Positions 14,048-34,216 of a stretch of 45,263 nt of DNA are shown piece by piece. Source of the stretch: Candidatus Bathyarchaeota archaeon. GTDB lineage: Archaea > Thermoproteota > Bathyarchaeia > Bathyarchaeales > Bathyarchaeaceae. The position numbers and the translations under genes were made by a program. Position 1 is the stretch's first letter; the number at the start of each line of letters is the position of its first letter. Below the pieces are notes generated by a model that was not told the DNA's origin, searched no databases, and saw nothing but the letters and a program-made list of their open reading frames with translations. The stretch covers positions 1 through 45,263 of the forward strand of contig JASFPO010000002.1 in NCBI GenBank assembly GCA_050115935.1, in the 5' to 3' direction.

Positions 14048-14887
14048 TCAGTATTCTTTCGGCATCGCCATAAGCTCCTTGTGAGTGAAGACTGGGCCGT
14101 CTTTGCACACGAACTTGTTTCCGATGTTGCACCTTCCGCATTTTCCGATGCCGCACTTCATCCGCATCTCGAGAGACAATATGACATCCTCGGGGGCGAA
14201 GCCTAGCTCAGTAATAACTGGCATGGTGAATTTTATCATTATAGGAGGCCCGCACACAATCAAGACAGCGTGTTCAGAACTTGGGGCAACCTCTTTGAGA
14301 ACGGCTGGGACGAAACCAACTAACCCAGTCCAACCGGGAACAGCCTGATCTATAGTCACGTTAAGGTTGATGTCATCCCTCTTCCCCCAGGCTTCAAGAT
14401 CATACTTGTAGATGAGTTCGCCTGGGTCGCGGGCTCCATAGATAACCGTTAAGTCTTTGAATCTGTCTCTGTTGGCTTCGTGAAGAATGAAATTGGTTAG
14501 AGACCTAAGTGTTGTAAAGGCGAAGCCTCCCCCGACAATTACAACATTTCGACCTTCCATTCTCTCTAGAGGAAAACCGTTGCCGAATGGCCCCCTGACC
14601 CCTATGACAGTTCCTTCTTCGCTGTTGTGCAGGGTTGCGGTAACCACTCCGACCTTTTTCACGGTGAATTGAATGTAGCCCTCGTCCATGGGGGATGAGG
14701 CTATGCCTATGGGGCACTCTCCGGCGCCGAAGACAGAGATTTCCGCGAACTGGCCACATCTATACTTGAAGTTCTTCATCTCGTCCGAGTCTTGGAAAAC
14801 TAGTTCGAACGTCTTAATGTCGTTTACTTCGTTTTCTGTAATGATTTTTCTGATGGTCGCGAGGTTTGGGATATACGGATTGCTCAT
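14048..14887 (-). CDS. FAD/NAD(P)-binding electron-transfer subunit with C-terminal 2Fe-2S site (FlxA / sulfhydrogenase-gamma / AsrB-like)
   Basis: 279 aa. A ferredoxin-reductase-type fold is followed by the Cys cluster CGIGKCGRCNIG..C. It is the last gene of the minus-strand Hdr operon. Confidence 0.7.
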   Translation of the reverse strand: MSNPYIPNLATIRKIITENEVNDIKTFELVFQDSDEMKNFKYRCGQFAEISVFGAGECPIGIASSPMDEGYIQFTVKKVGVVTATLHNSEEGTVIGVRGPFGNGFPLERMEGRNVVIVGGGFAFTTLRSLTNFILHEANRDRFKDLTVIYGARDPGELIYKYDLEAWGKRDDINLNVTIDQAVPGWTGLVGFVPAVLKEVAPSSEHAVLIVCGPPIMIKFTMPVITELGFAPEDVILSLEMRMKCGIGKCGRCNIGNKFVCKDGPVFTHKELMAMPKEY

Positions 14888-14890
14888 TTT

Positions 14891-15919
14891 CTACTCCACC
14901 TGTCTAGTCGATATTTCTTCAACTATTCTTCTGATGTCGAAGTTGACAGGACACTCCCTGACGCATCTTCCACAGCCCACGCAGAGGCTTTCGCCGAAGT
15001 TCTTGACGAAATAGTTGAATTTGTGCATGATCCGTTGCCTCACTCTCTCCTTTCCCGAGGGTCGAGGGTTATGCCCTGAACCCTGCAGTGTGAAACAGTG
15101 AAACTGACACGAATCCCAAATCCTGACTCTTTTTCCCTCTTCCAGTCTCTCGTCAAGAACGTCGAAACAGCAGCACGTGGGACAAAGATAGGTGCAGACT
15201 CCGCAACCTACGCACTTCTGGTGTATCTCGTCCCATATTGGGTCATCGAACATTCTGTCAAGCTTCTCGCTTACACCTTCAACAGGTACCTTAGATCTAA
15301 TGGATTTCTCAACGTCCTCAGATAGCTTTCTCGCTTTTTCTATATCGGTTTTTTCTGCATCCCTCAACCACGGAAATTTCCCGATGAGCCTCTCACCCTT
15401 TTCAGTGACAGTTTCTATCAGATATTTGTCTTTTACATCTTGGAGAAGCAAATCCACGCCCTCTTTTCCGAAAGGGCTTCCTCCTACTGACGTACAGAAA
15501 CATGTGCTCAAGGGATAACTACATGCCAAGCCGATTACAGTTGTGTGTCCTCTTTTTTCTAAGTAGTACAAGTCTTTGTGTTCCCCAGAAGAGAGGAACT
15601 TGTCGATCAAAACGAAGCCTCTAGCATCGCAGGGGCGAACGCCCAGCAACACCATCCTTCTCTTCAGATCTGGGGCTTCCTCAATCTCTACACCTTTCTT
15701 GCCGACTCTGTAGGCGAACAAGATTTCGTTTTGCGGGAAGAAAACCTCTTTAGGAGGCTTCTTTGTGTTCTGGAGATCTAGGCAAGCTTCATTTTCAGGG
15801 GAAAACTTGTCAAAGAAGACAAGATCTTTCTCTTTGACTGGCGCAAAAACCTCGTGTTCTTTGGCCAACTCTTCGATGAGGAAGGGAATTTTGCTCTTTT
15901 CAATAACCTTCCACTTCAT
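14891..15919 (-). CDS. 4Fe-4S dicluster subunit (FlxB / sulfhydrogenase-beta / AsrA-like)
   Basis: 342 aa with motifs CVGCGVCTYLCPTC and CVGCGRCVRECP. A 3-nt gap separates it from the downstream gene. Confidence 0.65.
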   Translation of the reverse strand: MKWKVIEKSKIPFLIEELAKEHEVFAPVKEKDLVFFDKFSPENEACLDLQNTKKPPKEVFFPQNEILFAYRVGKKGVEIEEAPDLKRRMVLLGVRPCDARGFVLIDKFLSSGEHKDLYYLEKRGHTTVIGLACSYPLSTCFCTSVGGSPFGKEGVDLLLQDVKDKYLIETVTEKGERLIGKFPWLRDAEKTDIEKARKLSEDVEKSIRSKVPVEGVSEKLDRMFDDPIWDEIHQKCVGCGVCTYLCPTCCCFDVLDERLEEGKRVRIWDSCQFHCFTLQGSGHNPRPSGKERVRQRIMHKFNYFVKNFGESLCVGCGRCVRECPVNFDIRRIVEEISTRQVE

Positions 15920-15935
15920 CTAAGACACCATCCTG

Positions 15936-16886
15936 TCACCTTATAAACTCCTGAGAGTCATCCATTTTGAACTCTCCCAACGGGGGAATCTCCTCGAGGC
16001 TGACTCCTGCCTCGTAGTTGTACCGTTCTTTCATGATCTTTGCAGTTTTCTTCACGAGCTTCCTCAAGTCTATGTCCATCGGGCAGGCTCGACTACATGC
16101 TCCACAGTCAACACATCTTCCGGCCACGTGGAAAGCGCGAACAATGTGGTAGATCATAGTGTCTGAGATGTCGTTTGTTTTGCCGAACCAAGCAGGCATA
16201 GTTTGGTCGACGAAGCACATCTTACAGTAGCAGAGGGGACAAACGTTTCTACAAGCGTAGCACCTGATGCACTTGCTCAATTCTTCCTTAAAGTACGCCC
16301 ACCTTTCCTCCACTGACTTCGACTCAAGATCAGAAACCTCGTGGAACTCGTCGACCTGCGATGTTCCAAGTACTTTTTCGCCCACAAACACATCGTAAAT
16401 GGGGGGGGTTCTGTGCTTGCAGGTTAAGCATGAGTCGCAAATGAAACCACTTTTCGGTAAGGCAATCTCGAACCCTTCTCCCTTAACCAAGATCTTTTCG
16501 TCCTCAACACTAGCTTCTAAGACTTCTCTATTGTTGATTTTTGCCTCTACTTTTTTTCTGTCAATAAGCCCCAGACAGGGGACACCTATGATAACCACGT
16601 TTTCCCTCGGAATCTGCTTCTCAACGGCACAAACTGCTATTGAACGTGCGTCACAACCCTTTGCAACGACGCCTACCTTCTCTTTTCTACCCACCAAGTA
16701 CTTTGAAAGATTGGCGTCGCAACTTTCGTTCCAAACAAGCTTTTGAACGTCTTCCACCTTGTCCACAAAGCAGGGAGCAGCACGAAGTGGTAGGGTTCCT
16801 TGTTCGAATCCAATTATCAGGTCTACTTTCTTCTCACTGAGAAGTTTTCTAGCGGTCTCTCTTATCGAATTCTCAAGGCTTTCCAT
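15936..16886 (-). CDS. Cys-rich 4Fe-4S subunit (FlxC-like)
   Basis: 316 aa with motifs CIRCYACRNVCPLCYC and CVDCGACSRACP. It lies between the MvhD-like and FlxB-like genes. Confidence 0.6.
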   Translation of the reverse strand: MESLENSIRETARKLLSEKKVDLIIGFEQGTLPLRAAPCFVDKVEDVQKLVWNESCDANLSKYLVGRKEKVGVVAKGCDARSIAVCAVEKQIPRENVVIIGVPCLGLIDRKKVEAKINNREVLEASVEDEKILVKGEGFEIALPKSGFICDSCLTCKHRTPPIYDVFVGEKVLGTSQVDEFHEVSDLESKSVEERWAYFKEELSKCIRCYACRNVCPLCYCKMCFVDQTMPAWFGKTNDISDTMIYHIVRAFHVAGRCVDCGACSRACPMDIDLRKLVKKTAKIMKERYNYEAGVSLEEIPPLGEFKMDDSQEFIR

Positions 16887-16892: not shown

Positions 16893-17321
16893 CTACTTCT
16901 TCACCAATCTTTCAGCAGGTCCTAGGACCCTCACCTTTTCTACCACATCCTTCACAACACTGGCAAATTTTTCACCTTCAGCTGCAGATACCCATGAGAA
17001 GTTTACTCTTTCAGGCTCAATCCCAAGGAATTCAAGTAGATCCTTCAGAACAGCAAATCTTCTTCTGGCCACGAGATTTCCACTGATGTAGTGACAGTCA
17101 CCAGGGTGACATCCAGAGACTAAGACCCCATCCCATCCACGTTGCAGAGCTTTTATGATAAAGTACGGGTTGACCCTTCCAGAGCAGGGAACCCGAACCA
17201 CCCGTATGTTAGGAGGATACTGCATCCTGCCTATTCCAGCAAGATCTGCTCCAGCATAGCTACACCAGTTGCACAGAAAGGCAAGTATTTTTGGGTTCCA
17301 TTCTTTTTCAGCGGATTTCAC
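16893..17321 (-). CDS. mvhD: MvhD/FlxD-like 2Fe-2S adaptor subunit (short form, 142 aa)
   Basis: FLCNWCSYAGADLAG ... VPCSGRV ... GCHPGDCHY is the hallmark of methyl-viologen-reducing hydrogenase delta subunit. Confidence 0.85.
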   Translation of the reverse strand: MKSAEKEWNPKILAFLCNWCSYAGADLAGIGRMQYPPNIRVVRVPCSGRVNPYFIIKALQRGWDGVLVSGCHPGDCHYISGNLVARRRFAVLKDLLEFLGIEPERVNFSWVSAAEGEKFASVVKDVVEKVRVLGPAERLVKK

Positions 17322-17325: not shown

Positions 17326-20300
17326 TCACCTCAAAGCGTTTATAATCAAGCTCATTTGCATGTCGGTGAAGCCTTTGATGTCTATTGCCGAGCACCTGCA
17401 AGTAGCGGCGCAGGCTCCACATCCCTTACAGAGGGCACTGTTCACTTTTGCCACCTTTCCCCTCCTGGTTTCTTCGATCTCTATGGCGTTGTAGGCGCAT
17501 ACCAGCATGCAAAGTTCGCACGCTGTGCATCTATTTGGGTTAACGGTGGCGATAATTCCCTCAGCCTCAATGGTGTCTCTTGTCAATAGCGTACACGCTC
17601 TGGAAACTGCGGCCTTCGCTTGAGAGATGCTCTCTTCTATGGATTTTGGCGAGTGAGCCATCCCGCACACGAAGATACCTTCTGTGGCGAAGTCAACCGG
17701 TCGAAGCTTAGCGTGCGCCTCTAAGAAAAAGCCATCTTCGTTTACAGGAACCTTCAGCATCTTGGCTAGAATCTCGTTTTCTTTAGGTGGAACGACGGCT
17801 GCACTTAGAACAAGGAGATCGGTATCTATGATGATGTCTTCTTGGATGGTTGGTTCAAGAACCGATACATGCAGGGCCTCTTTTCCCTGTGAAATTGTCT
17901 TGGTAACCTTCGGCTTATTTTCCTCTTCATAACGGATGAAGACCACTCCAGCCTCTCTAGCCCTTCTGTATTGTTCTTCCATTAGGCCGTAGGTTCTTAT
18001 ATCTCGGTACAGAACGTAAACGTTGGCCTGTGGGTCTTTCTCCCTTATTTTCAGAGCGTTCTTGACTGCTTCTCCGCAACACATTCTGCTGCAGTATGGG
18101 TGTTCGTCATTTCTAGACCCTACGCATTGAACCATCACCACGTTGCCGAAATTTCCATGGCTATCAGTTGCGATTCGGTTCTCCAATTCTAGCTGAGTCA
18201 ACACGCGGGAATCTTTTCCATAGAGGTACTCCTTCGGGCGGTATTCTTCACCTCCTGTAGCCACGATGATTGCTCCGTGCTCCAGCTCCCTTTTCACTTC
18301 GTTGCCAGAGTTTAGGGTTACCGTGGTTTTGAAGTTTCCTACGTATCCGGAGACGTTATCCACCTTTGCGTTGAGAAAGACTTTGATCAGCTCGTTTGAG
18401 TATACCTTTTCAATCATAGATCTCAGGTATTGTTGGGTATCGTCGTTGTCCAGCGTGTGGTGTATCTTGCGGAGGAAACCTCCAAGCTCTTTGTTCTTCT
18501 CAACCAGGTCCACTTCAAAGCCTTGCTCGGATAGAGCCAGAGCCGCGGTCATTCCCGCCAACCCTCCACCGATGACGAGTCCTCGGCTGGTGACATTCAA
18601 CGAAAGCCTTTCTAAGGGCTCTATCACTCGAGCCTTCGCCACCGCCATTCTCACCAAGTCTTTGGCCTTTTCTGTCGCGGCCTCGTGATCGTGCATGTGC
18701 ACCCAGGAACATTGGTCGCGGATATTTGTCATTTCGAAGAGATACCTGTTCAGACCAGCTTCCTTTATCGTTTCTTGGAATAGCGGTTCATGGGTTCGGG
18801 GCGAACATGAGGCCACTATGACTCTGTTTAGTCCATATTCTTTGATTCGATTCTTGATTATCTCCTGAGTGTCTGAGGAGCAGGTGTAAAGATTGTCACA
18901 AGCGTGGACGACATTTGGAAGGGTCCGAGCGTACTCCACAACGCTTGGAACGCTAACGACCCCTCCAATGTTGATGCCGCAGTGGCACACAAAGACCCCT
19001 ATTCTGGGTGGCTGACCCCTAACATCCAGCTCTTTTGGATACTCCTTCTTCTTGACCAAGGTTCCTCGAACAGAAGACAGCAACTCACCCACAGTAGCAG
19101 AAGCCGCACTGGCCTGAGTAACAGTCTCAGGAATATCCTTGGGCGAGGAGGCTGCACCGCAGACAAGTATTCCAGGTTTCGACGTTCTTGTAGGTGTGAA
19201 GGATTGGGTTTTGAAGAAATCATATTCGTCGAGTCTGACCCCGAGTTTCTCAGCCAATTCTTTGTTGCCCCCGGCTGGTTTGATACCCAAAGTGAGAACA
19301 ACTAGGTCAAACTCTTCTTGTACGAGCTTTCCATCCTCAGATTCATATTTTATTCTCAGGTTTCGAGTTTCGGGCACTTCTTCCACGGAGGAAACTCTAC
19401 ACCGTACAAACCTCACACCATATTCATCCTTCGCTCTCTCTATGTACTTATCAAAGTCCTTCCCATAAGCCCTGACATCCATGGCGAATATTGTGGGCTC
19501 AATTTGACTCATGTGCTCCTTTGCTATCACAGCTTCTTTAGTAGCATACATACAACAGACTGATGAACAATAACCGCTTCCACAAGTGACATCTCTGGAA
19601 CCCACGCATTGTATGAAGGCAATCCTTCGAGGGATATCGCCATCAGATGGGCGAAGAACCATACCAGCATGCGGACCGCTGGCACTGAGAAGACGCTCAA
19701 ACTCTATGCTTGAGACAACGTTCAGGTATCGGCCATAACCATACTCTGTCTTGAGGCTTGGATCGAATTCGTCAAACCCTGTGGCAAGAACTATCACTCC
19801 AACATCAAGTTGGAGTTCTCCGTCTTCTTGATCATACCTAATCGCTCCAGCCTTGCAAACTTCTTCACATATGCCACAGCCCAAGCACTTTTCCTTGTTG
19901 ATTATGAAAACTAATGGTACAGCTTGGGGATATTTGACGTAGATGGCTCCTCCTTTAGATAGACCTTCATTGAATACATCCAACGCTTCAACTGGACATT
20001 TCTGTGCACAAACGCCACAGCCAGTGCACTTATCCTCGTCGACACGCCTTGATTTTCTAGTTAACGTAACCTTAAAGCGTCCTGCTTCTCCCTCAACTCG
20101 CCTTATAACCGTGTTTGTCATTAAGTTGATGTTCTGGTGTCGACCAGCGGCAACAAGCTTGGGTGCTAGAATGCACATGGCGCAGTCGTTAGTCGGGAAC
20201 GTCTTGTCGAGTTGAGCCATTGTTCCGCCTATGCTAGGTGACGAGTCAACGAGGTAAACCTTGAAGTCTGAATCTGCTAGGTCAAGTGATGCTTGGACCC

Positions 20301-26691: not shown

Positions 26692-28023
26692 CTATCGAAC
26701 CTCCTCGTGTGCTACCAGCGCTACTACTTCTGCAGCTCTCGCGGCTGCTCCACTGGCTTGTGCAACAGATTCTGGAATATCTTTAGGACCATGGCAACAT
26801 CCGCAGACGAAAACTCCTTGGATATTCGTGTCGACAGGCATCATCACGGAGTCTTTGGCTTCGAAGAAGCCGTATTCATCAAGTTTTACTCCGAGCTTTT
26901 CGCTTAGCTCCTTGTTAGACTCCTTGGGGACAAAAGCCGGGCAAAGGACCACCATATCCACTTTTAGCTCTCTCACTTCTCTGGTTATGGTATGTTCGCA
27001 AGAGATTACAAGATCCTTTGTTCTCGGATCCTCTGAAATCTCGCTAGGACGTCCTCTAATATATTGTATGCCCCAATTCTCTCTTGCTCTGTCGATGAAG
27101 CTTTGGAAACCCTTCCCAGAGGCTCTAAGGTCTATGTAGAATATGAAAACCTCAGAATCGGATTCATGTTCCTTTATTAATATCGCTTCTTTCGTGGCGT
27201 ACATGCAACATGCGCTAGAGCAGTACGAAACACCTCTTCCCAAGCCCCTTGAACCCACACACTGTATGAAAGCAACCTTGTTAGGGACTTTTCCGTCAGA
27301 TGGCCTTGTTACGTGACCTCCGGTTGGACCGGATGCGTTGGCTAGACGCTCAAGCTCCAGAGAAGTTATAACATTTTTATATCGCTTGTAGCCATATTCA
27401 TTAATTGCAGATGGATTAAGTAGATTGAAGCCCGTAGCGACGATGATAGCGGATACTTCTAGTGTGATCTCTTCAGGCTCTTGTTCAAAGTCCACAGCCT
27501 CGGCTTGACACAACTTTTCACATATTCTGCATACTCCACGTGTGAAGTATAGACAGTTTTCCTTATCGATTGTCGCAATGCGAGGCACGGCTTGCAGGAA
27601 CGGCATATAGATGGCCTGCCTCATTCCAAGGAGCATATCAAATTCGTTAGGCAATCTAACTGGACATTTCTCTGTACACGTGCCACAACCTGTGCATTTA
27701 GCCTCATCAACGAATCGAGGCTTTCTCATGACCTTTACGTTGAAAAGTCCCGCCGATCCGCTGACTTCCTCTATTTTGGAATAAGCCAGCAATGTGATAT
27801 TTGGATGGCGAAAGCACTCAATCATCTTTGGGGCAAGTATGCAAATTGAGCAGTCCAGTGTTGGAAATGTTTTGTCTAGTTGCGCCATTCTTCCGCCTAT
27901 GCTTGGGGTCTCCTCCACGAGGTATACCTTAAATCCACGGTTAGCTAGATCCAAGGATGCTTGTATCCCGGCAACACCACCACCAATCACCAAGATTGAA
28001 GAGCTTTCCTTCAAGAGAATCAC
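26692..28023 (-). CDS. hdrA: HdrA-like N-module as a separate ORF (443 aa; equivalent to the N-half of the double HdrA)
   Basis: It has VIGGGVAGIQASLDLA, DKTFPTLDCSICILAPK, an inserted ferredoxin CTGCGTCTEKCP and CVGSRGLGRGVSYCSSACCMY. It ends ...AHEEVR at TAG 26692-26694. Confidence 0.85.
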   Translation of the reverse strand: MILLKESSSILVIGGGVAGIQASLDLANRGFKVYLVEETPSIGGRMAQLDKTFPTLDCSICILAPKMIECFRHPNITLLAYSKIEEVSGSAGLFNVKVMRKPRFVDEAKCTGCGTCTEKCPVRLPNEFDMLLGMRQAIYMPFLQAVPRIATIDKENCLYFTRGVCRICEKLCQAEAVDFEQEPEEITLEVSAIIVATGFNLLNPSAINEYGYKRYKNVITSLELERLANASGPTGGHVTRPSDGKVPNKVAFIQCVGSRGLGRGVSYCSSACCMYATKEAILIKEHESDSEVFIFYIDLRASGKGFQSFIDRARENWGIQYIRGRPSEISEDPRTKDLVISCEHTITREVRELKVDMVVLCPAFVPKESNKELSEKLGVKLDEYGFFEAKDSVMMPVDTNIQGVFVCGCCHGPKDIPESVAQASGAAARAAEVVALVAHEEVR

Positions 28024-29507
28024 ACTTCACCTCTTCTTAAGTAACGATGGATAGATGCCGCGGCTCTCTTACCAGCAGCAATTGCCTCAATCACGCTTGC
28101 CGGCCCTGACACCACATCCCCACCAGCAAACACTCCGGGCATGCTTGTTTCCAGAGTGAGAGGATCTACGGCGATGGTATTCCATTCAGTGACTTCGACC
28201 ATCTCAGGGAGAAAGAAGATGTCTGGTAATTCACCGATGGCCAAGAGTATTGTGTCCAATTCCATGGTGAACTTCGAGCCCTTGATCGGTATTGGTCGTC
28301 TTCTACCACTCTCGTCAGGAGATCCTAATCTCATCCGAATACACTCTACAGCAGTAACTTGTTTATCCTTTTCTAAGATTTTCCTAGGCATCAACAGAAA
28401 ATGAATCTTTACGCCATTCCTTTCTGCTTCTTCTACCTCCAAAGGACTTGCAGGCATCTCTTCTCTAGATCTTCTATAGAGAATGTTAACCTCTTTGGCC
28501 CCGAGCTGGAGGGCGGTTCTAGCTACATCCATGGCAGTGTTGCCACCACCAACAACTCCGACTCTTTCTCCAAGTCTAGGTTGTCTCTGCAGGTTGACTT
28601 GACGCAGCAAATCAATGGCGTGTAGTATACCTCCCAAATCTTCACCTTCAACACGAAGCTTTCTGCTTTTGTGAGCTCCGGTTGCGACGAAAATCGCTTT
28701 ATATTCTTCCTTTTTTAGAAGGTCTCTGAACGACAGATCCTTACCAATGGCTGTGTTGGTTCTAATCTCTACTCCAAGATTTTCTATATACTTTATTTCC
28801 GCATCTACGACATCCTTGGGCAGCCGATATGTGGGTATTCCCACTCTTAACATCCCTCCAGGCTCAGACAGCGCCTCAAAAACTGTAACTGGAAATCCCA
28901 TCCTGATCAATTCCCAAGCTGTCGTAAGTCCAGCTGGGCCAGAACCGACTATAGCTATTCTTTCCTTACGCGTCTTAGGCAGAGGGGTTACTTCTCTTTT
29001 TCCATAGTCCGCAAGAGAGCGTTCAAGAAAATTTGAAATGTAGTTGTCAAGCTTACTGCGTTTGGGTTTTTCCTCACAGGGTCGTAGGGAAAGCCAACTG
29101 TAGACTAGAGGGAATGGAAATTGCTCTCCAAGAATTGCAAGAATTTCTTCAAGCTTGCTCAACACGTCTGGCAAATAGCCTCGTTCAACAGTCATCTCTC
29201 TTAATAGCAAGAAGATTTCCGGTAGTTTCAGCCCGTGGGGACATCTTTTGTAGCATCGATAGCACATTGCGCATATCCAGAGTCCTGTTTCGGACAGAAC
29301 GTTCTCCAAGCCAAGAGAGAGCTTGTTGAAAAAGACTCTTGGATTATAGAGCCCTGGAAAAACTCTTGCAACTGGGCAGGCTGCGGTGCAGGTTCCGCAT
29401 TCATAGCAATGTGCCAACATCTCAGCGTCGGGTGATCTTTTCGAAAGCTCCCGTGAGATTGCAGCTTGAGAGCTTCCCGAGGTGAACTGCTCTATCCTGT
29501 TGCTCAT
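28020..29507 (-). CDS. HdrC-like 2x[4Fe-4S] domain fused to a GltD/NfnB-type NAD(P)H-dependent flavin oxidoreductase
   Basis: 495 aa. The N-terminus CYECGTCTAACPV...CAMCYRCYKRCP parallels HdrC at 33686..34216 (CYQCGTCNVGCPV...CSACYTCRERCP). Dinucleotide motifs IAIVGSGPAGL and VGVVGGGNTAMD follow, as in glutamate synthase small-subunit-like proteins. Confidence 0.75.
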   Translation of the reverse strand: MSNRIEQFTSGSSQAAISRELSKRSPDAEMLAHCYECGTCTAACPVARVFPGLYNPRVFFNKLSLGLENVLSETGLWICAMCYRCYKRCPHGLKLPEIFLLLREMTVERGYLPDVLSKLEEILAILGEQFPFPLVYSWLSLRPCEEKPKRSKLDNYISNFLERSLADYGKREVTPLPKTRKERIAIVGSGPAGLTTAWELIRMGFPVTVFEALSEPGGMLRVGIPTYRLPKDVVDAEIKYIENLGVEIRTNTAIGKDLSFRDLLKKEEYKAIFVATGAHKSRKLRVEGEDLGGILHAIDLLRQVNLQRQPRLGERVGVVGGGNTAMDVARTALQLGAKEVNILYRRSREEMPASPLEVEEAERNGVKIHFLLMPRKILEKDKQVTAVECIRMRLGSPDESGRRRPIPIKGSKFTMELDTILLAIGELPDIFFLPEMVEVTEWNTIAVDPLTLETSMPGVFAGGDVVSGPASVIEAIAAGKRAAASIHRYLRRGEV

Positions 29508-29602
29508 CGATCTGGCGATCCTCCATGATGCAGCTTTGTTCCACTGTCTCCAAGGTCAAGAGCGATTCGAATGCCTGTTACTACACCGATACCCAGAATC
29601 AT
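29504..29602 (-). pseudogene. 32-codon mini-ORF resembling the N-terminal FAD-binding segment of HdrA (relic or micro-ORF)
   Basis: MILGIGVVTGIRIALDLGDSGTKLHHGGSPDR compares with [26 protein letters not shown] in the HdrA copies. Its ATG lies 1 nt after the FrhB-like stop, and its TGA overlaps the ATG of the HdrC::GltD gene. Confidence 0.45.
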
Positions 29603-29603
29603 C

Positions 29604-30785
29604 TTAGGATTTTCCCTTGAAGCTCTCCTCTCCAGCCAATTCCGAAAGCCTCTTCTCAGCCCTCGTTCTCTTCCTTCTGGCGAAGGAAACGATCTTGGCC
29701 AACATCCTAGTCTTCTCCAGTTCACTCTCCTTCGCATCTTCGAAGGTTCTCTCCTGAATGTAACCCTTACGAAGACTCTCATCGTAAATTGTCCTGCCTA
29801 CTTTTGTCCTTATAAGAGTTGAAGTATATCCGTCAGGTGAACCAAGTCCTCCGACCGAAATGTCGGCGTACTCGTTGCTGAAGTCTTGGCATGCAAAGCA
29901 TGCTGGGCGAGCGACTTCGTGTATCTCTTCCAATGGGACATGAATAGTCACACCTTTAGTGAGTGTGATTGTGAAGTCATCTTTGATGTTCAATTTGACG
30001 ATATCCTCTAGATTGATGTCGAGTTTCTTCTCCAGTCTTTCTCTTGCTACGTCATCAAACGAGAAATTTTCTATGCAAAATAGCCCTATCGTGTATTTTA
30101 TGAGGTGAGCTGGGAGAATTCCGAGGCATTGCATCTTTCGAATCGCATTGATCTGGCAGGGAGTTCCAACCACGGCTATATTCTGCTTATATCGTCTCTC
30201 TAGGTTCTTTACTGTGGATAGAATAGGAGTGTAAGTGGTATATTTTCCTCCTAACTCCTCTAGATGTTGGGATCCTGAGAATGTAGAGCCTGATGCTTCT
30301 ATGAGCTCCTCATGGGTTGAGGCTATCATGGGCTTTCTCGCGAATCGCCCTGTCTTTTTTGACACTAGAGCACCATTTATCAGGTTGCTATCCAGTAAGT
30401 ATAGGAGGAGAGAGGTAACTACGCCTCCGTCTGTGCAAATTTTCTTCACCTCTTTATTTGTCGTCTGAGCGGAGGTTATCCTATGATAGTCGCCTATAGG
30501 AGGCTTCCAGCCAAACTTCTCTTGGAGCTCCAAGTTTAGCTTATCTGTTTGAGGGCATATGAGGTAGCATATTCCGCATTTCAGGCAATTTTCCTCGTTG
30601 ATGTATTCCGGCACCTCATTCTTACCCATCTTGAGGGCGTTGAGTTCTCCCGCTGAGCAGAAGGAGACGCAGCCACCACACTTGCCACATATTCCCTTCT
30701 CGACTACTTCCATGGCTAAATCTTTGAATGTCTTAGTCTCCTCCATAGTAACCAAACCTAGAACGTTAGTATAATTTTGAACCAT
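29604..30785 (-). CDS. FrhB/FdhB-family (coenzyme F420 hydrogenase/dehydrogenase beta-like) flavo-iron-sulfur protein
   Basis: 393 aa. An N-terminal ferredoxin (CGKCGGCVSFC, CLKCGICYLICP) is followed by FrhB-like segments DGGVVTSLLLYLLD and VGTPCQINAIRKM. It is the first gene of the long minus-strand operon. Confidence 0.7.
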   Translation of the reverse strand: MVQNYTNVLGLVTMEETKTFKDLAMEVVEKGICGKCGGCVSFCSAGELNALKMGKNEVPEYINEENCLKCGICYLICPQTDKLNLELQEKFGWKPPIGDYHRITSAQTTNKEVKKICTDGGVVTSLLLYLLDSNLINGALVSKKTGRFARKPMIASTHEELIEASGSTFSGSQHLEELGGKYTTYTPILSTVKNLERRYKQNIAVVGTPCQINAIRKMQCLGILPAHLIKYTIGLFCIENFSFDDVARERLEKKLDINLEDIVKLNIKDDFTITLTKGVTIHVPLEEIHEVARPACFACQDFSNEYADISVGGLGSPDGYTSTLIRTKVGRTIYDESLRKGYIQERTFEDAKESELEKTRMLAKIVSFARRKRTRAEKRLSELAGEESFKGKS

Positions 30786-30889: not shown

Positions 30890-32242
30890 TTGCCAAAGAA
30901 AATAGTAATTATCGGCGCAAACGCAGCTGGTGTTCACGCCGCAAACGCAGCTCGCAAAACCGATTCCAAGGTTGAAATTACTTTAATAGACAAAGAGAAA
31001 ATCCCAGCCTACTCGCGTTGCGGTATACCCTATGTCCTAGCTGGTGAGATACCAAGCTTTGAAGATCTCATGGCCTTTCCTCCAGCCCATTATAGAATGA
31101 TGAAGTTTGATCTACGCCTTGAAACCACGGCTAGGTCCATCAATCCAGAAGATAAAATTGTTCTAGTTGAAGACAAGAAAGGAAATTTCGAAGCACTAAA
31201 ATACGACTCGTTGATCCTCGCAACTGGTGCTGATCCGTTTATTATACCACTCAAGGGTCGCAACCTTCCAGGAGTGTTTGCGATGAGGTCGGTGGATGAC
31301 GGAAAAAGAATTCAAGAAGCGCTAAAGATGGCCAAGAGTGCTGCTGTTATCGGGGCTGGATTTATTGGTCTAGAAACGGCACATGCTATCGCGATGAATA
31401 AAATCAAAACTACGATCATTGAAGTTGTGCCCTACATTCTTCCTGCATTATTCGACGAAGATATGGCCGATTATACACAGAAGAAAATAGAAGGACATGG
31501 CGTAAACGTGGTAGTAGGCAAACGGGTAGATGCAATCCTAGGCAAAGAAAAGGTTGAAGGCGTAAGCGTAGCCGGAGAGAAAATAGAAGCAGATATTGTT
31601 GTCATGGCTGCAGGCATCAGACCAAGAACAGACTTGATAAGGGGACTCGGAGTAGAATTAGGTGTAACCCGAGCCATCAGAGTGAACCCAAGAATGGAGA
31701 CCACCATTTCCAGCATATTCGCGGCCGGAGACTGTGTAGAATCTCAAAGCTCGATCACAGGGTTGCCATGTCTTTATCAACTTGGAACCAACGCGGTTAG
31801 GCAGGGAACAACCGCTGGAGTAAATGCGGCAGGAGGATACGCTGCCAATCCTCGCGTGATTTGCAGTGCAGTTTCGAAAATCTTTGATTTTGAACTTGGT
31901 GCTGTAGGTCTCTCAGAGTATCAAGCTGCCAAGGTTGGCTTCCAAACACTTAGTGCAAGCATCACGGGAAAAACTCGGGCACCATATTTCCCGGGAGGAA
32001 AAGAAGTCAAAGTAAAAGTCATTGCTGAACCTGTTTTGGGAAGAATTATGGGAGCCCAGATAGTTGGCGGGGAAGACGTAGCGCAGAGGATTAACATGCT
32101 CTCTGTTGCGATACAAAAAGAAATGACGGCGTTAGAGCTTTCTGCGGCTGACACTAGTTATGCTCCTCCCGTAGCTGAGACTGTAGAGCCCGTAGCGACA
32201 GCCGCGGAGATCGTTGCCAAAAAAATACGTAGGCGTAGGTAG
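30890..32242 (+). CDS. Single-cysteine pyridine-nucleotide-disulfide oxidoreductase of the CoA-disulfide reductase / NAD(P)H sulfur oxidoreductase / NADH oxidase group
   Basis: 450 aa. It has KIVIIGANAAG, a redox Cys in AYSRCGIPYVLAGE (compare the CGIPYV motif of Pyrococcus-type CoADR/NSR), a second Rossmann AAVIGAGFIGLE and AAGDC. The TTG start follows AGGAGAG. Confidence 0.7.
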   Translation: MPKKIVIIGANAAGVHAANAARKTDSKVEITLIDKEKIPAYSRCGIPYVLAGEIPSFEDLMAFPPAHYRMMKFDLRLETTARSINPEDKIVLVEDKKGNFEALKYDSLILATGADPFIIPLKGRNLPGVFAMRSVDDGKRIQEALKMAKSAAVIGAGFIGLETAHAIAMNKIKTTIIEVVPYILPALFDEDMADYTQKKIEGHGVNVVVGKRVDAILGKEKVEGVSVAGEKIEADIVVMAAGIRPRTDLIRGLGVELGVTRAIRVNPRMETTISSIFAAGDCVESQSSITGLPCLYQLGTNAVRQGTTAGVNAAGGYAANPRVICSAVSKIFDFELGAVGLSEYQAAKVGFQTLSASITGKTRAPYFPGGKEVKVKVIAEPVLGRIMGAQIVGGEDVAQRINMLSVAIQKEMTALELSAADTSYAPPVAETVEPVATAAEIVAKKIRRRR

Positions 32243-32326
32243 GAACCTTCATTAGGACGCTGAACTCCAAGATTCAAGGCTAATCAAACCTAATGAAAGG
32301 CTGACAATCCCTAGAAGGATAAATGG

Positions 32327-32797
32327 ATGAAGGTTGGCATATACGACATTCCTGAGAATTACTATTACATTAAAGAACACGAGTGGATCTTAATAGAAAA
32401 CACTGACACAGCAAGAATTGGAATCACAGACTATGCTCAGAAAGCGTTGAGGGAGATTACTTACTTCTACACAGGAGAAAAGAATACTGAAGTCAAACGG
32501 ATGGAGACAATCTGCAAGATAGAGTCAGTAAAATGCGTTGCTGAGATATTAAGTCCCTTCTCAGGCATTGTTCTCAGATTTAATAACGGACTATTCGACA
32601 CTCCAAGTATCATAAACAGTGATCCTTATGGCAAAGGTTGGATAGCAATCATCCGCCCTTCAAACCTTGAAAAAGAGCAGGAAAAACTATTAAAACCAGA
32701 AATTTACGCAGAGCACATAAAAGCACTTACCAGAGTAGATGAAACTCTATTAATTCACAGATGGAAAAAGGGAATAGAGGAAAAAACGGGCGAATAA
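32327..32797 (+). CDS. GcvH-like lipoyl-carrier protein (copy 2, divergent)
   Basis: 156 aa. It has GITDYAQKAL and the lipoyl-lysine motif IESVKCVAEILSPFSG (Lys codon 32531-32533), plus a C-terminal extension relative to copy 1. Confidence 0.7.
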   Translation: MKVGIYDIPENYYYIKEHEWILIENTDTARIGITDYAQKALREITYFYTGEKNTEVKRMETICKIESVKCVAEILSPFSGIVLRFNNGLFDTPSIINSDPYGKGWIAIIRPSNLEKEQEKLLKPEIYAEHIKALTRVDETLLIHRWKKGIEEKTGE

Positions 32798-32808
32798 AGG
32801 GCTCTAAT

Positions 32809-33684
32809 CTAGACACCAAGCTTACTCAACAAGTCAGACGTCTTCACACGGTTCATGTCCAACCCCAACTCCTTTGGCGGCATTCCTAGAGCAAGCCCAA
32901 GGACTTGTGGGTAAAATAGTACTGGCAGATTATAAGCCGCATTAAATCTTCTCTCTATCACCCTCTGATTTCTGTCGTACATAGAACCACACAAGGGGCA
33001 CATCAGAACCATCGCGTCGGCGCCCATAGCATGGATGTGATCAAGTTTTCTCTGAGCCATTGTCAACGCGATCTTATCGTCAACGTCCAGAATCACTCCG
33101 CCACAACACTGCGTCTTATCCTCATATTCTACAGTTTCTGCGCCCAGTGCAGAGATAAGTTCATCTAGAGTTCTAGGAAACTCCGGGTTCTCGAATCTGT
33201 CAAAAACATCTGATGGCTTAAAGTAATGGCATCCATAGTGGGAGGCTACCTTGAGCCCTTCCAAGCTGTTTTTAACTTGGCTCTTAATCTTTTCAGGGCC
33301 AATATCTTCGTATAGAACACGCACAAAATGTCTAACTTTGAGCTTTCCTTTGTAAGCCCGACCTATTTTTCGCAGCTTCTCGTTGACCTTATGCCTTAGT
33401 TCATCATCATGCGTCAGCTCTTTGGAGGCTTCCGCTAGCGTGGAGGCGCAACCTGTGCAGATAGTGCATATATCTAAGCCCGTCTCTTCAGCAACACCTA
33501 GATCCCTAGCAGCTAGAAGCAAAGCTGTCTCATGGTCTACGGATCTTATGGGGAAGCCACAACAGGCAAAATCCTCAATGTCTATGAGTTCCATTCCGAG
33601 TTTTTTTGCGACATTCCTCGCTGAAAGCTCGAACTGCTTAGACATTACAGGTGAAAGGCACCCTGGGAAAAAGGCGTACTTCAC
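32809..33684 (-). CDS. hdrB: Heterodisulfide reductase subunit B (two CCG domains)
   Basis: 291 aa. It starts MKYAFFPGC... and has the CCG motifs FACCGFP and TQCCGG. Confidence 0.85.
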   Translation of the reverse strand: MKYAFFPGCLSPVMSKQFELSARNVAKKLGMELIDIEDFACCGFPIRSVDHETALLLAARDLGVAEETGLDICTICTGCASTLAEASKELTHDDELRHKVNEKLRKIGRAYKGKLKVRHFVRVLYEDIGPEKIKSQVKNSLEGLKVASHYGCHYFKPSDVFDRFENPEFPRTLDELISALGAETVEYEDKTQCCGGVILDVDDKIALTMAQRKLDHIHAMGADAMVLMCPLCGSMYDRNQRVIERRFNAAYNLPVLFYPQVLGLALGMPPKELGLDMNRVKTSDLLSKLGV

Positions 33685-33685
33685 T

Positions 33686-34216
33686 TTACTCTCCTCTTCC
33701 AGCGCTTGAGAGCTTGTTTAAGCCCGTTAGCTTAAAGATTTCCTGAACTTCCTCGTTTCTGGGTTGAATTCGCGGTAACCCAAGTTCTTTCCTTTTAGTG
33801 TTATCAAACTGGCTCACGGGGAACAGCTTGCCTTGGGTTCCTACGATCTCCACTCGCTTGGCAAAAGAGCTGTGAACATAACCTTCTTTTACTGCCAGAT
33901 TTTTCAGAGCATTCATCACATCAGCTATTCTAACATCCTGAGGACAACGTTCCCGACAAGTGTAACATGCAGAACACAGCCATATGAATTCATTTGAAAG
34001 GACCCTTTCTCTCATACCCAGCACGGTCATTCGTATGATCTTTCTGGGATTGTATTTCTCCTCTATCTCTCTAACCGGGCATCCGACGTTACATGTTCCA
34101 CATTGATAGCATCTCTTTATGTTCTGTCCTCCGGGAACCTTTGAAACTTCGTCTTTGAACTTAGGGTCGAGTTTAGTGACCACCAAAATAGGTCTCTCCA
34201 CATCTAATTTGACCAA
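33686..34216 (-). CDS. hdrC: Heterodisulfide reductase subunit C (2x[4Fe-4S])
   Basis: 176 aa with CYQCGTCNVGCP and CSACYTCRERCP. A 1-nt gap separates it from hdrB. Confidence 0.85.
   Translation of the reverse strand: MVKLDVERPILVVTKLDPKFKDEVSKVPGGQNIKRCYQCGTCNVGCPVREIEEKYNPRKIIRMTVLGMRERVLSNEFIWLCSACYTCRERCPQDVRIADVMNALKNLAVKEGYVHSSFAKRVEIVGTQGKLFPVSQFDNTKRKELGLPRIQPRNEEVQEIFKLTGLNKLSSAGRGE

What the first reader, a model, noticed from the sequence alone, without database searches (positions are those of the whole stretch)
14048..34216. 20-kb Hdr/Flx-type supercluster with three tandem [double-HdrA + MvhD] units, three different input modules and only one HdrBC
Seen: twelve co-directional minus-strand ORFs run from 30785 to 14048. 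ATGA start/stop overlaps occur at 28020-28023, 24979-24982, 21116-21119 and 20352-20355. All other gaps are 24 nt or less, except 96 nt at 29508-29603. The order is FrhB-like, HdrC::GltD-like, [HdrA-N | HdrA-C] + MvhD, double-HdrA + MvhD, double-HdrA + MvhD, then FlxC-, FlxB- and FlxA-like. hdrC-hdrB form a separate minus-strand pair 2 kb upstream. No hydrogenase (MvhA/G) or formate dehydrogenase catalytic subunit is present in the window. Established: HdrA carries the bifurcating FAD, MvhD/FlxD is the 2Fe-2S adaptor, HdrBC reduces the disulfide, and FlxABCD-HdrABC (NADH-linked) is described in Desulfovibrio. Inference: this locus encodes three paralogous bifurcation cores. It pairs them with three alternative donor/acceptor modules: two NAD(P)H-type and one F420/flavin-type. 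That suggests a combinatorial or very large multi-core complex that matches neither canonical Mvh-Hdr, Fdh-Hdr nor Flx-Hdr.
Basis: partly seen in the sequence, partly recalled or inferred. Interest (0 to 1): 0.8.

Follow-up and report, generated by a model that had tools for sequence, protein, structure and literature searches.

The report
Three-unit double-HdrA electron-bifurcation operon
A Bathyarchaeia archaeon carries a real, conserved 12-gene operon that strings together three "double HdrA" flavoprotein units with NAD(P)H-, F420- and disulfide-linked modules. It is an uncharacterised multi-unit variant of the known Flx/Hdr electron-bifurcating enzymes, not a new kind of system.

Summary
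Twelve co-directional genes (30785→14048, minus strand) encode FrhB-like, HdrC::GltD, split HdrA + MvhD, double HdrA + MvhD, double HdrA + MvhD, and FlxC/B/A-like proteins, with hdrCB 2 kb upstream. The window is archaeal, and the closest relatives are Bathyarchaeia.

The same 16-gene order occurs in an independent 1.84-Mb Bathyarchaeota chromosome (CP070649.1). The three units are only 50–68% identical, so assembly duplication is excluded.

Each unit is an asymmetric pseudo-dimer of HdrA. Its N-half has Cys197 and the inserted ferredoxin domain. Its C-half has the N-terminal and C-terminal domains. This fused HdrA type is already described in the literature.

Tandem arrays of 2–5 such units are widespread in Asgard archaea, Bathyarchaeia, Methanomassiliicoccales and bacteria, and none has been purified or characterised as a multi-unit assembly.

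I found three things not in the papers I read:
- Internal MvhDs carry an ArsR-type winged-helix extension and are followed by an HdrA gene in 76 of 77 cases.
- A natural fusion protein links HdrA-C, MvhD-extension and HdrA-N in one chain.
- The 96-nt "gap" is a relic of a replaced HdrA gene.

Two lipoyl-lysine GcvH genes and a CoADR-like gene flank the cluster.

Verdict: a new variant of a known kind, of moderate interest.

The parts
29604..30785 (-). FrhB-like F420-reactive flavo-FeS module (393 aa; N-terminal 2x[4Fe-4S] domain plus FrhB_N and FrhB_C)
   Evidence: Pfam PF04422/PF04432. NCBIfam frhB/FpoF-like, below the curated cut-off. Best PDB sequence hits are 8RJA_E (E 8e-55) and 8RIU_B, the entries reported in PMC11493965 ('Ethane-oxidising archaea couple CO2 generation to F420 reduction'). 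A TATA-like TTTATAT lies about 43 nt upstream of the ATG.
29508..29603 (-). Relic of the N-terminus of a replaced HdrA-N gene (the '96-nt gap')
   Evidence: One frame reads MILGIGVVTGIRIALDLGDSGTKLHH. It matches the FrhB-adjacent HdrA-N of L083, L001 and L062 (score 67; 0 of 5000 shuffles reach it) better than the window's own HdrA-N (score 46). The same relic is present in L081.
28020..29507 (-). HdrC::GltD fusion (495 aa): HdrC-like 2x[4Fe-4S] N-terminus plus NfnB/GltD-like FAD/NAD(P)H domain
   Evidence: Pfam Fer4_8 and Pyr_redox_2. NCBIfam PRK12771 and CoB_CoM_SS_C. PDB: residues 109-491 match NfnA/NfnB/NfnL (9n5u, 4ylf_B, 5jca_L) and residues 30-113 match HdrC (5odc_C). The second Rossmann motif is GGGNTA.
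26692..28023 (-). Unit 1 N-half, HdrA-N (443 aa): thioredoxin-reductase (TrxR) domain with Cys194/Cys197, inserted ferredoxin domain, TrxR cluster, E356 and K409
   Evidence: It ends in TAG followed at once by the ATG of HdrA-C. It is a separate gene also in L081-L083.
24979..26691 (-). Unit 1 C-half, HdrA-C (570 aa): N-terminal FeS domain, TrxR domain (no Cys197, no inserted ferredoxin domain), C-terminal ferredoxin domain
   Evidence: A GGAGGT Shine-Dalgarno sequence lies 7 nt upstream of the ATG.
24200..24982 (-). MvhD1 with C-terminal helical and winged-helix extension (260 aa)
   Evidence: Pfam FlpD with HTH_20 and PF0610-like_N. Aligns with MvhD2 over its full length (51% identity; alignment A1).
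21116..24175 (-). Unit 2, fused double HdrA (1019 aa)
   Evidence: AF2 model pTM 0.82. Foldseek best matches are HdrA chains 5ODC_A and 8RVU_A.
20352..21119 (-). MvhD2 with C-terminal ArsR/SmtB-type winged-helix extension (255 aa)
   Evidence: AF2 pLDDT 79. Foldseek: the N-part matches MvhD 5ODC_D, and the extension matches HlyU, NolR, CzrA, SqrR and Phr. ATGA overlaps on both sides.
17326..20355 (-). Unit 3, fused double HdrA (1009 aa)
   Evidence: It is 68% identical to unit 2.
16893..17321 (-). MvhD3, short canonical MvhD/FlxD (142 aa)
   Evidence: Pfam FlpD E 2e-56. Short MvhDs precede FlxC or HdrC in related loci.
15936..16886 (-). FlxC-like FeS protein (316 aa)
   Evidence: Pfam 2x[4Fe-4S] and a weak FrhB_FdhB_C hit. 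PDB: matches the C-terminal region of FdhB/ElpB of Hdr complexes (7bkb_E, 8rvu_E, 9t1s_M).
14891..15919 (-). FlxB-like, HydB/ShyB/AsrA-type FeS protein (342 aa)
   Evidence: Pfam Fer4_22. NCBIfam sulfhydrogenase beta-like. PDB 9nez_B, sulfhydrogenase I beta, E 8.5e-46.
14048..14887 (-). FlxA-like, HydG/AsrB-type FAD/NAD(P)H/[2Fe-2S] protein (279 aa)
   Evidence: Pfam FAD_binding_6, NAD_binding_1 and DHODB_Fe-S_bind. PDB 9nez_C, sulfhydrogenase I gamma, E 2e-55.
33686..34216 (-). HdrC (176 aa as listed, TTG start)
   Evidence: Pfam Fer4_8 and Fer4_17. In Asgard loci hdrC-hdrB lie directly upstream of frhB in the same orientation.
32809..33684 (-). HdrB (291 aa) with two CCG domains
   Evidence: Pfam CCG, two stretches. 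The CCG motifs ACCGFP and QCCGG are visible in the translation.
32327..32797 (+). GcvH-like protein 1 (156 aa), lipoyl-lysine motif ESVKC retained
   Evidence: Pfam GCV_H. PDB GcvH hits. Lysine column check. It holds the same position in L001 and L081-L083.
30890..32242 (+). CoA-disulfide reductase / NADH oxidase-family flavoprotein (450 aa), divergent from frhB
   Evidence: Pfam Pyr_redox_2 and Pyr_redox_dim. PDB 6pfz (NoxA-3), 6ruz, and 4fx9/3kd9 (CoADR). The position is conserved in L001, L062 and L081-L083.
13373..13798 (+). GcvH-like protein 2 (141 aa), lipoyl-lysine motif ESVKA retained, convergent with flxA
   Evidence: Pfam GCV_H. PDB. Lysine check. It holds the same position in L001 and L082.

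Best explanation
This is a conserved operon of a Bathyarchaeia archaeon. It encodes a soluble, modular Flx/Hdr-type flavin-based electron-bifurcating or confurcating machine built from three asymmetric HdrA units.

**The unit.** Each unit, one split into two genes and two fused, is the equivalent of one HdrA homodimer that has lost its symmetry. The C-half supplies the N-terminal and C-terminal domains, which in solved Hdr complexes form the mobile donor arm together with MvhD. The N-half supplies Cys197, the inserted ferredoxin domain (the ferredoxin exit) and its own FAD. So each unit most likely offers one complete bifurcation path (inferred).

**The modules.**
- NAD(P)H connects through a sulfhydrogenase-type FlxA/FlxB pair and an FdhB-like FlxC, which docks on the short MvhD3 (the Flx arm).
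- NAD(P)H also connects through an NfnB-like flavoprotein fused to an HdrC-like domain. That domain can plug into the HdrC site of an HdrA.
- F420 connects through the FrhB-like module.
- A still unknown disulfide is handled by the single HdrBC. The candidates encoded next door are lipoyl-GcvH and a CoA-type disulfide.

**How the units join.** The two long MvhDs, with their winged-helix tails, act as connectors between one unit's C-terminal ferredoxin domain and the next unit. All three units would then work as one linked assembly whose length can change in evolution.

**Shown and inferred.** Shown: gene content, cofactor motifs, conservation, the positional rule and the fusion protein. Inferred: the electron path, the direction of the reaction, the substrates and the physical assembly.
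For: - **Domain and cofactor motifs.** All six halves keep the TrxR-cluster Cys386/399/403/404 and the E356/K409 signature. Only the N-halves have Cys194/197 and the 8-Cys inserted ferredoxin domain. Only the C-halves have the N-terminal-domain cysteines and the 8-Cys C-terminal ferredoxin domain (PDB alignment).
- **Fold.** The AF2 model of the 1019-aa chain has pTM 0.82 and matches HdrA structures.
- **Arm mechanism.** PMC12350162 shows that the donor arm is made of the donor subunits, MvhD and the HdrA N- and C-terminal domains. It serves the FAD' and HA5' cluster of the partner protomer.
- **Module identities.**
- **Conservation.** The same 16-gene order is present in CP070649.1, and partial copies are in L081, L083, L001, L002 and L062.
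- **Connector rule.** Of 77 long MvhDs, 76 precede an HdrA gene. Short MvhDs precede HdrC or FlxC.
- **Extension distribution.** Where a full protein is visible, the extension is attached to an MvhD domain; many hits are short fragments.
- **Natural fusions.** P0243 is HdrA-C::MvhD::extension::HdrA-N. HdrAA::MvhD fusions also occur.
- **Translational coupling.** 4-nt overlaps link HdrAA2, MvhD2 and HdrAA3.
- **Unit number evolves.** Arrays of 3-5 units arose independently in Bathyarchaeia, Asgard archaea and Methanomassiliicoccales.
- **HdrBC belongs to the cluster.** In Asgard loci hdrCB is in the same orientation directly upstream of frhB.
Against: - There are no expression, protein or activity data for this locus or for any multi-unit array.
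- I could run no multimer prediction, so the connector role of the winged-helix tail rests on gene order and one fusion protein.
- The C-halves also keep FAD motifs and the E/K signature, so two active flavins per unit cannot be excluded. This has been proposed for BamE (PMC9430772).
- Lipoamide has a low redox potential (own knowledge). With it as acceptor, NAD(P)H-driven ferredoxin reduction looks thermodynamically unfavourable, so either the direction or the disulfide is uncertain.
- hdrCB is a separate transcription unit here, separated from the operon by two genes on the opposite strand.
Confidence: 0.55

Rival explanations
1. Three independent, alternative Hdr complexes are merely co-transcribed. 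Unit 1 works with FrhB and HdrC::GltD, unit 3 works with FlxABC-MvhD3, and unit 2 pairs with a partner encoded elsewhere. All of them compete for the single HdrBC.
For: - Gene adjacency pairs FrhB and HdrC::GltD with unit 1, and FlxCBA with unit 3.
- Solved Hdr complexes have one donor module per arm (PMC12350162).
- In M. maripaludis, different donors can bind one Hdr dimer (cited in PMC9012536).
- Clusters with a single HdrAA exist: 37 of 84 loci.
Against: - Unit 2 has no donor of its own, yet it is conserved in L081-L083.
- The rule that long MvhDs occur only before another HdrA gene (76 of 77) is unexplained by this reading.
- The fusion protein P0243 is also unexplained.
- HdrAA2, MvhD2 and HdrAA3 are translationally coupled.
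Confidence: 0.27
2. The long MvhD proteins are redox-sensing transcription factors, with a [2Fe-2S] sensor domain and an ArsR-type winged-helix DNA-binding domain. They regulate the operon and are not enzyme subunits.
For: - Foldseek matches the extension to ArsR/SmtB-family repressors, including the redox- and sulfide-sensing SqrR, BigR and HlyU, and to the archaeal Phr.
- Pfam hits to HTH_20 and PF0610-like_N, and an NCBIfam hit to the Phr regulator.
Against: - The copy number follows the number of HdrA units (n-1 per array, up to four in L071). A regulator would be expected once per operon.
- These genes are translationally coupled inside the enzyme genes.
- The extension is fused in-chain between HdrA halves in P0243 and after HdrA in P0150.
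- The most conserved residues lie in the helical linker (R156, R158, N172, Y174, G175), not in the recognition helix.
Confidence: 0.08
3. The triplication is an assembly artefact or a set of decaying pseudogenes.
For: - The units repeat with a 3.8-kb period.
- One unit is split by a stop codon.
- A gene relic sits in the 96-nt gap.
Against: - The units are only 50-68% identical in protein and at most 79% identical in DNA.
- The same order is present in an independent 1.84-Mb chromosome and in further contigs.
- All ORFs are intact, with every cofactor ligand conserved.
- The split unit forms an old, separate clade whose two genes each have a start codon and a Shine-Dalgarno sequence.
Confidence: 0.02

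Closest known systems
FlxABCD-HdrABC of Desulfovibrio vulgaris (Ramos et al. 2015, as cited in PMC4759654 and PMC7015854)
   Same: It has an NAD(P)H-binding FlxA-type flavoprotein, FeS proteins FlxB and FlxC, an MvhD-type FlxD, HdrA and HdrBC. It has no hydrogenase and no formate dehydrogenase. It is proposed to bifurcate from NADH to ferredoxin plus a protein disulfide.
   Different: Here there are three asymmetric double or split HdrA units instead of one HdrA. There are two extra long MvhDs with winged-helix tails, an FrhB-like F420 module and an HdrC::GltD module. The gene order is reversed (hdrA…mvhD-flxC-flxB-flxA). hdrCB is in a separate transcription unit. No DsrC is in view.
Fused or tandem heterodimeric HdrA: HdrA3/4 and HdrA5/6 of ANME archaea (PMC9012536), and type II HdrA (PMC12054007)
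   Same: Two thioredoxin-reductase domains sit in one chain, or in two adjacent genes. Cys197 and the N-terminal domain are present in a complementary way. Both papers propose an asymmetric 'own heterodimer', and serial bifurcation has been suggested.
   Different: In ANME HdrA3/4 the N-terminal half carries the N-terminal domain. Here the order is the opposite: the Cys197 plus inserted-ferredoxin half comes first. The partners are Flx, FrhB and GltD modules, not FdhAB-like or molybdopterin proteins. The organism has no visible methane metabolism in this window. Arrays of 3-5 units with MvhD connectors are not described in those papers.
Elp-Hdr, Fdh-Hdr-Fmd and Mvh-Hdr complexes of methanogens (PDB 8RVU, 7BKB, 5ODC; PMC12350162)
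   Same: HdrA, MvhD, HdrB and HdrC are clear homologues (39-55% identity). An FdhB/FrhB-family F420 module with MvhD as donor arm is an established design.
   Different: There is no ElpA/FdhA or MvhAG. HdrA is not a symmetric homodimer. The disulfide cannot be assumed to be CoM-S-S-CoB.
HdrA of MetFV-HdrABC-MvhD (Moorella, Sporomusa) and BamE of the Geobacter Bam complex (PMC9430772)
   Same: These are large HdrA proteins with two TrxR domains. The C-terminal part consists of an MvhD-like domain, a TrxR domain and a C-terminal ferredoxin domain, with no inserted ferredoxin domain. A GltD/NAD(P)H domain is associated with the N-terminal part in Moorella. Two tandem bifurcations are proposed for Bam.
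   Different: No MetFV or BamB partners are present. GltD is a separate HdrC fusion here, not an insertion. The units are multiplied.
sHdr-LbpA sulfur-oxidising system (PMC6067878)
   Same: Lipoate-binding GcvH-like proteins are genetically linked to HdrB and HdrC.
   Different: sHdrA is a small (~350 aa) single-domain HdrA-like protein (6TJR). No hdrC1B1A-hyp-hdrC2B2 set and no sulfur-transferase genes are seen here.

Membership tests
FlxABCD-HdrABC | FlxA: FAD/NAD(P)H-binding protein with a [2Fe-2S] domain | tested here: met
   Pfam FAD_binding_6, NAD_binding_1 and DHODB_Fe-S_bind. PDB sulfhydrogenase I gamma, E 2e-55.
FlxABCD-HdrABC | FlxB and FlxC FeS proteins plus an MvhD-type FlxD next to hdrA | tested here: met
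   FlxB is HydB-like. FlxC is a 2x[4Fe-4S] protein that is FdhB-C-terminus-like. MvhD3 is at 16893-17321. Orthology to the Desulfovibrio proteins was not tested directly.
FlxABCD-HdrABC | One canonical four-domain HdrA (~650 aa) with HdrB and HdrC in the same operon | tested here: not met
   There are three asymmetric double or split HdrA units. hdrCB lies 2 kb away behind two genes on the opposite strand.
FlxABCD-HdrABC | NADH oxidation coupled to ferredoxin and DsrC reduction | not testable with these tools
   This needs enzyme assays. No DsrC gene is in the window.
Type II / fused heterodimeric HdrA | Two TrxR/FAD domains in one polypeptide | tested here: met
   Units 2 and 3 each have two GxGxxG FAD folds and two Cys386/399/403/404 sets. 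Unit 1 has the same content as two genes.
Type II / fused heterodimeric HdrA | Complementary presence of Cys197 and the N-terminal FeS domain in the two halves | tested here: met
   Cys194/197 occur only in the N-halves, and the N-terminal-domain cysteines occur only in the C-halves. The order of the halves is opposite to that described for ANME HdrA3/4 (PMC9012536).
Mvh-Hdr (HdrABC-MvhAGD) | [NiFe]-hydrogenase subunits MvhA and MvhG | tested here: not met
   None of the ORFs of 100 aa or more that I scanned with Pfam contains a hydrogenase domain.
Fdh-Hdr / Elp-Hdr | An FdhB/ElpB F420 module together with FdhA/ElpA | tested here: not met
   A FrhB-family protein is present, but no FdhA/ElpA-like ORF is in the window.
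MetFV-HdrABC-MvhD | metF and metV adjacent to hdr | tested here: not met
   No MetF or MetV domains were found in the window ORFs that I scanned.
sHdr-LbpA | Small sHdrA, two HdrBC pairs, and lipoate-binding LbpA | tested here: not met
   HdrA is the large type and there is a single hdrCB pair. Only the GcvH-like proteins with a lipoyl-lysine resemble this system. Whether they are LbpA-type was not tested.
Pyrrolysine read-through of the TAG between HdrA-N and HdrA-C | An in-frame TAG decoded as Pyl, giving one fused protein | tested here: not met
   The MttB ORF at 5189-6694 is uninterrupted despite the PYLIS hit. In relatives the split is made by an overlap or a 3-nt gap. HdrA-C has its own Shine-Dalgarno sequence and ATG.

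The most novel reading that the evidence does not exclude
The long MvhD subunits with an ArsR-type winged-helix tail are dedicated inter-unit connectors. They wire successive asymmetric HdrA units into a serial, length-variable (2 to 5 units) chain of bifurcating flavins. Low-potential electrons from one unit are passed on and bifurcated again in the next, linking NAD(P)H, F420, ferredoxin and a lipoyl-protein or CoA-type disulfide in one megacomplex. This assembly principle is not described for any flavin-based electron-bifurcating enzyme. It would also be a non-DNA-binding use of an ArsR fold.
Probability: 0.22. Interest if true: 0.8.

Novelty: new variant of a known kind. Interest (0 to 1): 0.5.

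Why it matters
Hdr-type complexes are among the most highly transcribed energy genes of Asgard archaea (PMC11291895), and they are common in Bathyarchaeia. Yet their substrates and architecture outside methanogens are unknown.

This locus and its relatives show that these lineages do not use a simple HdrABC. They use arrays of asymmetric double HdrA units joined by a special MvhD. Input modules have been swapped in evolution, and here that swap left a relic.

If the units act in series, this would be a way to generate very low-potential electrons, or to balance NAD(P)H, F420 and ferredoxin pools, in energy-limited subsurface archaea.

The flanking lipoyl-GcvH and CoADR genes give concrete, testable candidates for the long-sought 'unknown heterodisulfide' of non-methanogenic Hdr.

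Tried and rejected
1. **Selenocysteine or pyrrolysine read-through joining HdrA-N and HdrA-C.** The stop codon is TAG, not TGA. The PYLIS_3 hit lies inside an uninterrupted MttB-family ORF. In relatives the two genes are separated by an overlap or a gap. Rejected.
2. **Assembly duplication.** Rejected.
3. **Natural MvhD-ext::HdrAA fusions in L063, L070 and L049.** These turned out to be ORF-calling artefacts in GC-rich contigs, where wrong-frame extensions have no stops. A real fusion was later found in P0243.
4. **My first tblastn reading of the common Bathyarchaeia cluster as 'HdrC::GltD + 2 units + HdrCB'.** This was wrong. It is GcvH-like | GltD fused to a C-terminal ferredoxin domain (~570 aa) | long MvhD | one HdrAA | short MvhD | HdrC | HdrB.
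5. **A general link between Hdr and lipoyl-GcvH.** The 196-234-aa GcvH-like proteins of those clusters have W or M in place of the lipoyl-lysine. The lipoate idea therefore applies only to the window's lineage and a few others.
6. **A solved double HdrA structure.** A sequence search and a Foldseek search of the PDB found only ~650-aa HdrA chains.
7. **The word-indexed search with the extension alone.** It gave only 15 hits, mostly fragments. The exhaustive search was needed.

Full report

Yes. The ORF listing returns the twelve minus-strand ORFs at the stated coordinates.

The four 4-nt start/stop overlaps exist. Two read ATGA (21116-21119 and 20352-20355), one reads GTGA (28020-28023) and one reads TTGA (24979-24982). 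The remaining spacers are 0-24 nt, apart from the 96 nt at 29508-29603.

Pfam, NCBIfam and PDB sequence searches confirm every assignment:
- an FrhB-like protein;
- an HdrC-like domain fused to a GltD/NfnB-like flavoprotein;
- an HdrA split into a 443-aa and a 570-aa gene;
- two ~1010-aa double HdrAs;
- three MvhD proteins;
- an FlxC-like FeS protein, whose closest solved relatives are the C-terminal part of FdhB/ElpB from Hdr complexes;
- FlxB and FlxA, which are clear homologues of sulfhydrogenase I beta and gamma (E 8.5e-46 and 2e-55).

hdrC-hdrB lie at 32809-34216. No hydrogenase or FdhA domain occurs in the window ORFs that I scanned with Pfam.

**2. Whose genome is it, and could it be an artefact?**

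The window carries an archaeal 23S rRNA and an archaeal RNase P RNA. The best protein relatives are named Candidatus Bathyarchaeota/Bathyarchaeia.

The three HdrA units are 50% (unit 1 against units 2 and 3) and 68% (unit 2 against unit 3) identical. The MvhDs are 51-57% identical. At the DNA level the best repeat is 79% identical over 300 nt.

The complete gene order is found again in CP070649.1, a 1.84-Mb Bathyarchaeota chromosome at about 82% protein identity (L082). That order is hdrC, hdrB, gcvH(-), CoADR(-), frhB, hdrC::gltD, hdrA-N, hdrA-C, mvhD(259), hdrAA, mvhD(255), hdrAA, mvhD(142), flxC, flxB, flxA, gcvH(-). Partial copies occur in L081 and L083. Assembly duplication and pseudogenisation are therefore excluded.

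The TAG between HdrA-N and HdrA-C is a true stop. Relatives separate the two genes by an overlap or by 3 nt. HdrA-C has its own GGAGGT-ATG. The PYLIS hit at 5581-5687 lies in an uninterrupted MttB-family ORF.

**3. What is a 'double HdrA'?**

I aligned all six halves to the HdrA of PDB entry 5ODC, rebuilt from the alignment. This gives a clean pattern.
- Every N-half has Cys194/Cys197, the eight cysteines of the inserted ferredoxin domain, the TrxR-domain cluster (Cys386/399/403/404), E356 and K409. [quoted passage not shown]
- Every C-half has the N-terminal-domain cysteines, the TrxR cluster, E356/K409 and the eight cysteines of the C-terminal ferredoxin domain. It lacks Cys194/197 and the inserted ferredoxin domain.

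This is the 'heterodimer in one chain' logic described for ANME HdrA3/4 and for tandem HdrA5/6 (PMC9012536). It is classified as type II HdrA (PMC12054007). Fused HdrA domains are reported for TACK and Asgard archaea (PMC11237513). Related large HdrAs are known from Moorella, Sporomusa and the Geobacter Bam complex (PMC9430772). Here the order of the halves is opposite to that reported for ANME HdrA3/4.

[quoted passage not shown] That arm serves the FAD' and HA5' cluster of the partner protomer.

Transferred to the double HdrA, the C-half's arm serves the N-half's flavin and ferredoxin exit. This is inference. Each unit then has one complete bifurcation path, not two. A second active flavin cannot be excluded, because the C-halves keep the E/K signature.

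The AF2 model of unit 2 has pTM 0.82 and matches only ~650-aa HdrA chains. No double HdrA has been solved.

**4. How common is the architecture?**

A scan of one genome per GTDB species returned 80 loci. With L081-L083 and the window this makes 84 loci. Of these, 45 have two or more tandem units and 8 have three or more: L007, L012, L041, L042, L043, L071, L082 and the window.

The commonest multi-unit form is hdrC-hdrB-frhB-[hdrA-N, hdrA-C]-mvhD(long)-hdrAA-mvhD(short)-flxC-flxB-flxA. It occurs in Promethearchaeia/Lokiarchaeia-type genomes and in some Bathyarchaeia. The Asgard literature calls this simply FlxABCD-HdrABC (PMC7015854).

Many Bathyarchaeia instead have GcvH-like | GltD-ferredoxin | long MvhD | one HdrAA | short MvhD | HdrC | HdrB. 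A Methanomassiliicoccales chromosome has at least four consecutive units (L071).

Multi-HdrA, Flx-like loci are expressed at the protein level in Desulfotomaculum reducens (PMC4759654).

**5. Features I did not find in the papers I read.**

(a) *A positional rule for MvhD.* MvhDs of 230 aa or more are followed by an HdrA gene in 76 of 77 cases. Short MvhDs are followed by HdrC or FlxC, and only two or three are followed by HdrA.

The extra 120 residues form a helical linker plus an ArsR/SmtB-type winged helix (AF2 pLDDT 79; Foldseek hits HlyU, NolR, CzrA, SqrR and Phr). An exhaustive search finds 195 cluster representatives. Where a full protein is visible, the extension is attached to an MvhD domain.

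One 1737-aa protein, P0243, is a natural fusion of HdrA C-half :: MvhD :: extension :: HdrA N-half carrying a GltD insertion. It mirrors the window's gene order hdrA-C, mvhD1, hdrAA2. HdrAA::short-MvhD fusions also occur.

Together these results argue that long MvhDs physically bridge one unit's C-terminal ferredoxin domain and the next unit. A regulator role is unlikely, because copy number scales with the number of units.

(b) *History of the triplication.* In a neighbour-joining tree of 128 units, split units form their own deep clade. The window's middle unit is sister to the Bathyarchaeia Flx-adjacent units, which indicates a duplication inside Bathyarchaeia. The three-unit arrays of Asgard archaea and the 4-5-unit array of L071 arose independently.

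(c) *Cassette replacement.* The window's split unit, which follows hdrC::gltD, groups with split units of HdrCB-type Bathyarchaeia clusters. It does not group with the FrhB-adjacent split units of the sister loci L001, L002, L062 and L083. It is only 57-59% identical to the split unit of L001, while the flanking genes are 82-90% identical.

The 96-nt 'gap' reads MILGIGVVTGIRIALDLGDSGTKLHH. This is a decayed HdrA N-terminus that matches the FrhB-adjacent HdrA-N of the sister loci (0 of 5000 shuffles reach the score). An [hdrC::gltD + foreign split HdrA] cassette therefore replaced the original first unit.

**6. Surroundings.**

Between hdrB and frhB, on the opposite strand, lie a CoA-disulfide-reductase/NADH-oxidase-family flavoprotein and a GcvH-like gene. 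A second GcvH-like gene is convergent with flxA. Both GcvH-like proteins keep the lipoyl-lysine, and their positions are conserved in relatives.

A role for GcvH as carrier of the unknown Hdr disulfide has been suggested for Culexarchaeia (PMC9723716). Lipoate-binding proteins are essential in the sHdr system (PMC6067878). From my own knowledge, the low potential of lipoamide makes NAD(P)H-driven bifurcation onto it unfavourable. The reaction may therefore run as a confurcation, or it may use another disulfide.

**7. Verdict.**

The interpretation needs three corrections:
- three asymmetric units, not six cores;
- a widespread, previously seen but uncharacterised family;
- probably one linked assembly rather than three alternative ones.

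It is a new variant of the Flx/Hdr kind. It combines an FrhB module, an HdrC::GltD module, a Flx arm, three units and winged-helix MvhD connectors. All mechanistic statements beyond domain content and conservation are inference.

Noticed in passing
window 29508-29603 (-): The only sizeable intergenic gap of the operon is a decayed remnant of the first ~26 codons of an HdrA-N gene. It most resembles the FrhB-adjacent HdrA-N of sister genomes, and the same relic is present in L081. It marks the left junction of a cassette replacement.
   Followed up: yes
window 5189-6694 (-), PYLIS_3 hit at 5581-5687: Rfam reports a pyrrolysine insertion element (48 bits), but the MttB-family ORF (501 aa) is uninterrupted. 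This is therefore a non-Pyl MttB homologue, and the hit reflects sequence homology. It gives no evidence that TAG is decoded as Pyl.
   Followed up: partly
window 37167-40235 (+) and 40439-40743 (+): An archaeal 23S rRNA gene has no 16S or 5S gene next to it. A PGK gene lies upstream and RNase P RNA lies 200 nt downstream. No tRNA gene is found in the whole window. The rRNA genes therefore appear unlinked.
   Followed up: no
L018 8129-9853 and similar loci (L011, L017, L022, L024, L045 and others): Many Bathyarchaeia have a ~570-aa protein that fuses a GltD/NfnB-like flavoprotein to an HdrA-type C-terminal ferredoxin domain. It is followed by a long MvhD and a single double HdrA. It is preceded by a 196-234-aa GcvH-fold protein in which the lipoyl-lysine is replaced by W or M.
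   Followed up: partly
L071 (CP070739.1, Methanomassiliicoccales chromosome, 3108878-3131844): At least four consecutive [double HdrA + long MvhD] units plus a fifth partial one. The units cluster together in the tree, which indicates lineage-specific amplification.
   Followed up: partly
P0243 (1737 aa, metagenomic): A single chain with the order HdrA C-half, MvhD, winged-helix extension, then HdrA N-half with an inserted GltD domain. Relative to the window's double HdrA it is a circularly permuted 'unit' with the connector in the middle.
   Followed up: partly
L010, L013, L060, L077 (Deltaproteobacteria and Thermodesulfobacteriota): Double HdrAs of ~1500 aa with a GltD insertion are followed by a long MvhD and a second double HdrA, with hdrCB upstream. 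This is the bacterial counterpart of the two-unit array.
   Followed up: no
window 30890-32797 (+): The CoADR/NADH-oxidase-family gene and the lipoyl-lysine GcvH gene sit on the same strand 84 nt apart, so they may form a two-gene operon. They are inserted between hdrB and frhB, which are directly adjacent in Asgard loci. This suggests a dedicated NAD(P)H:(lipoyl or persulfide) carrier pair.
   Followed up: partly
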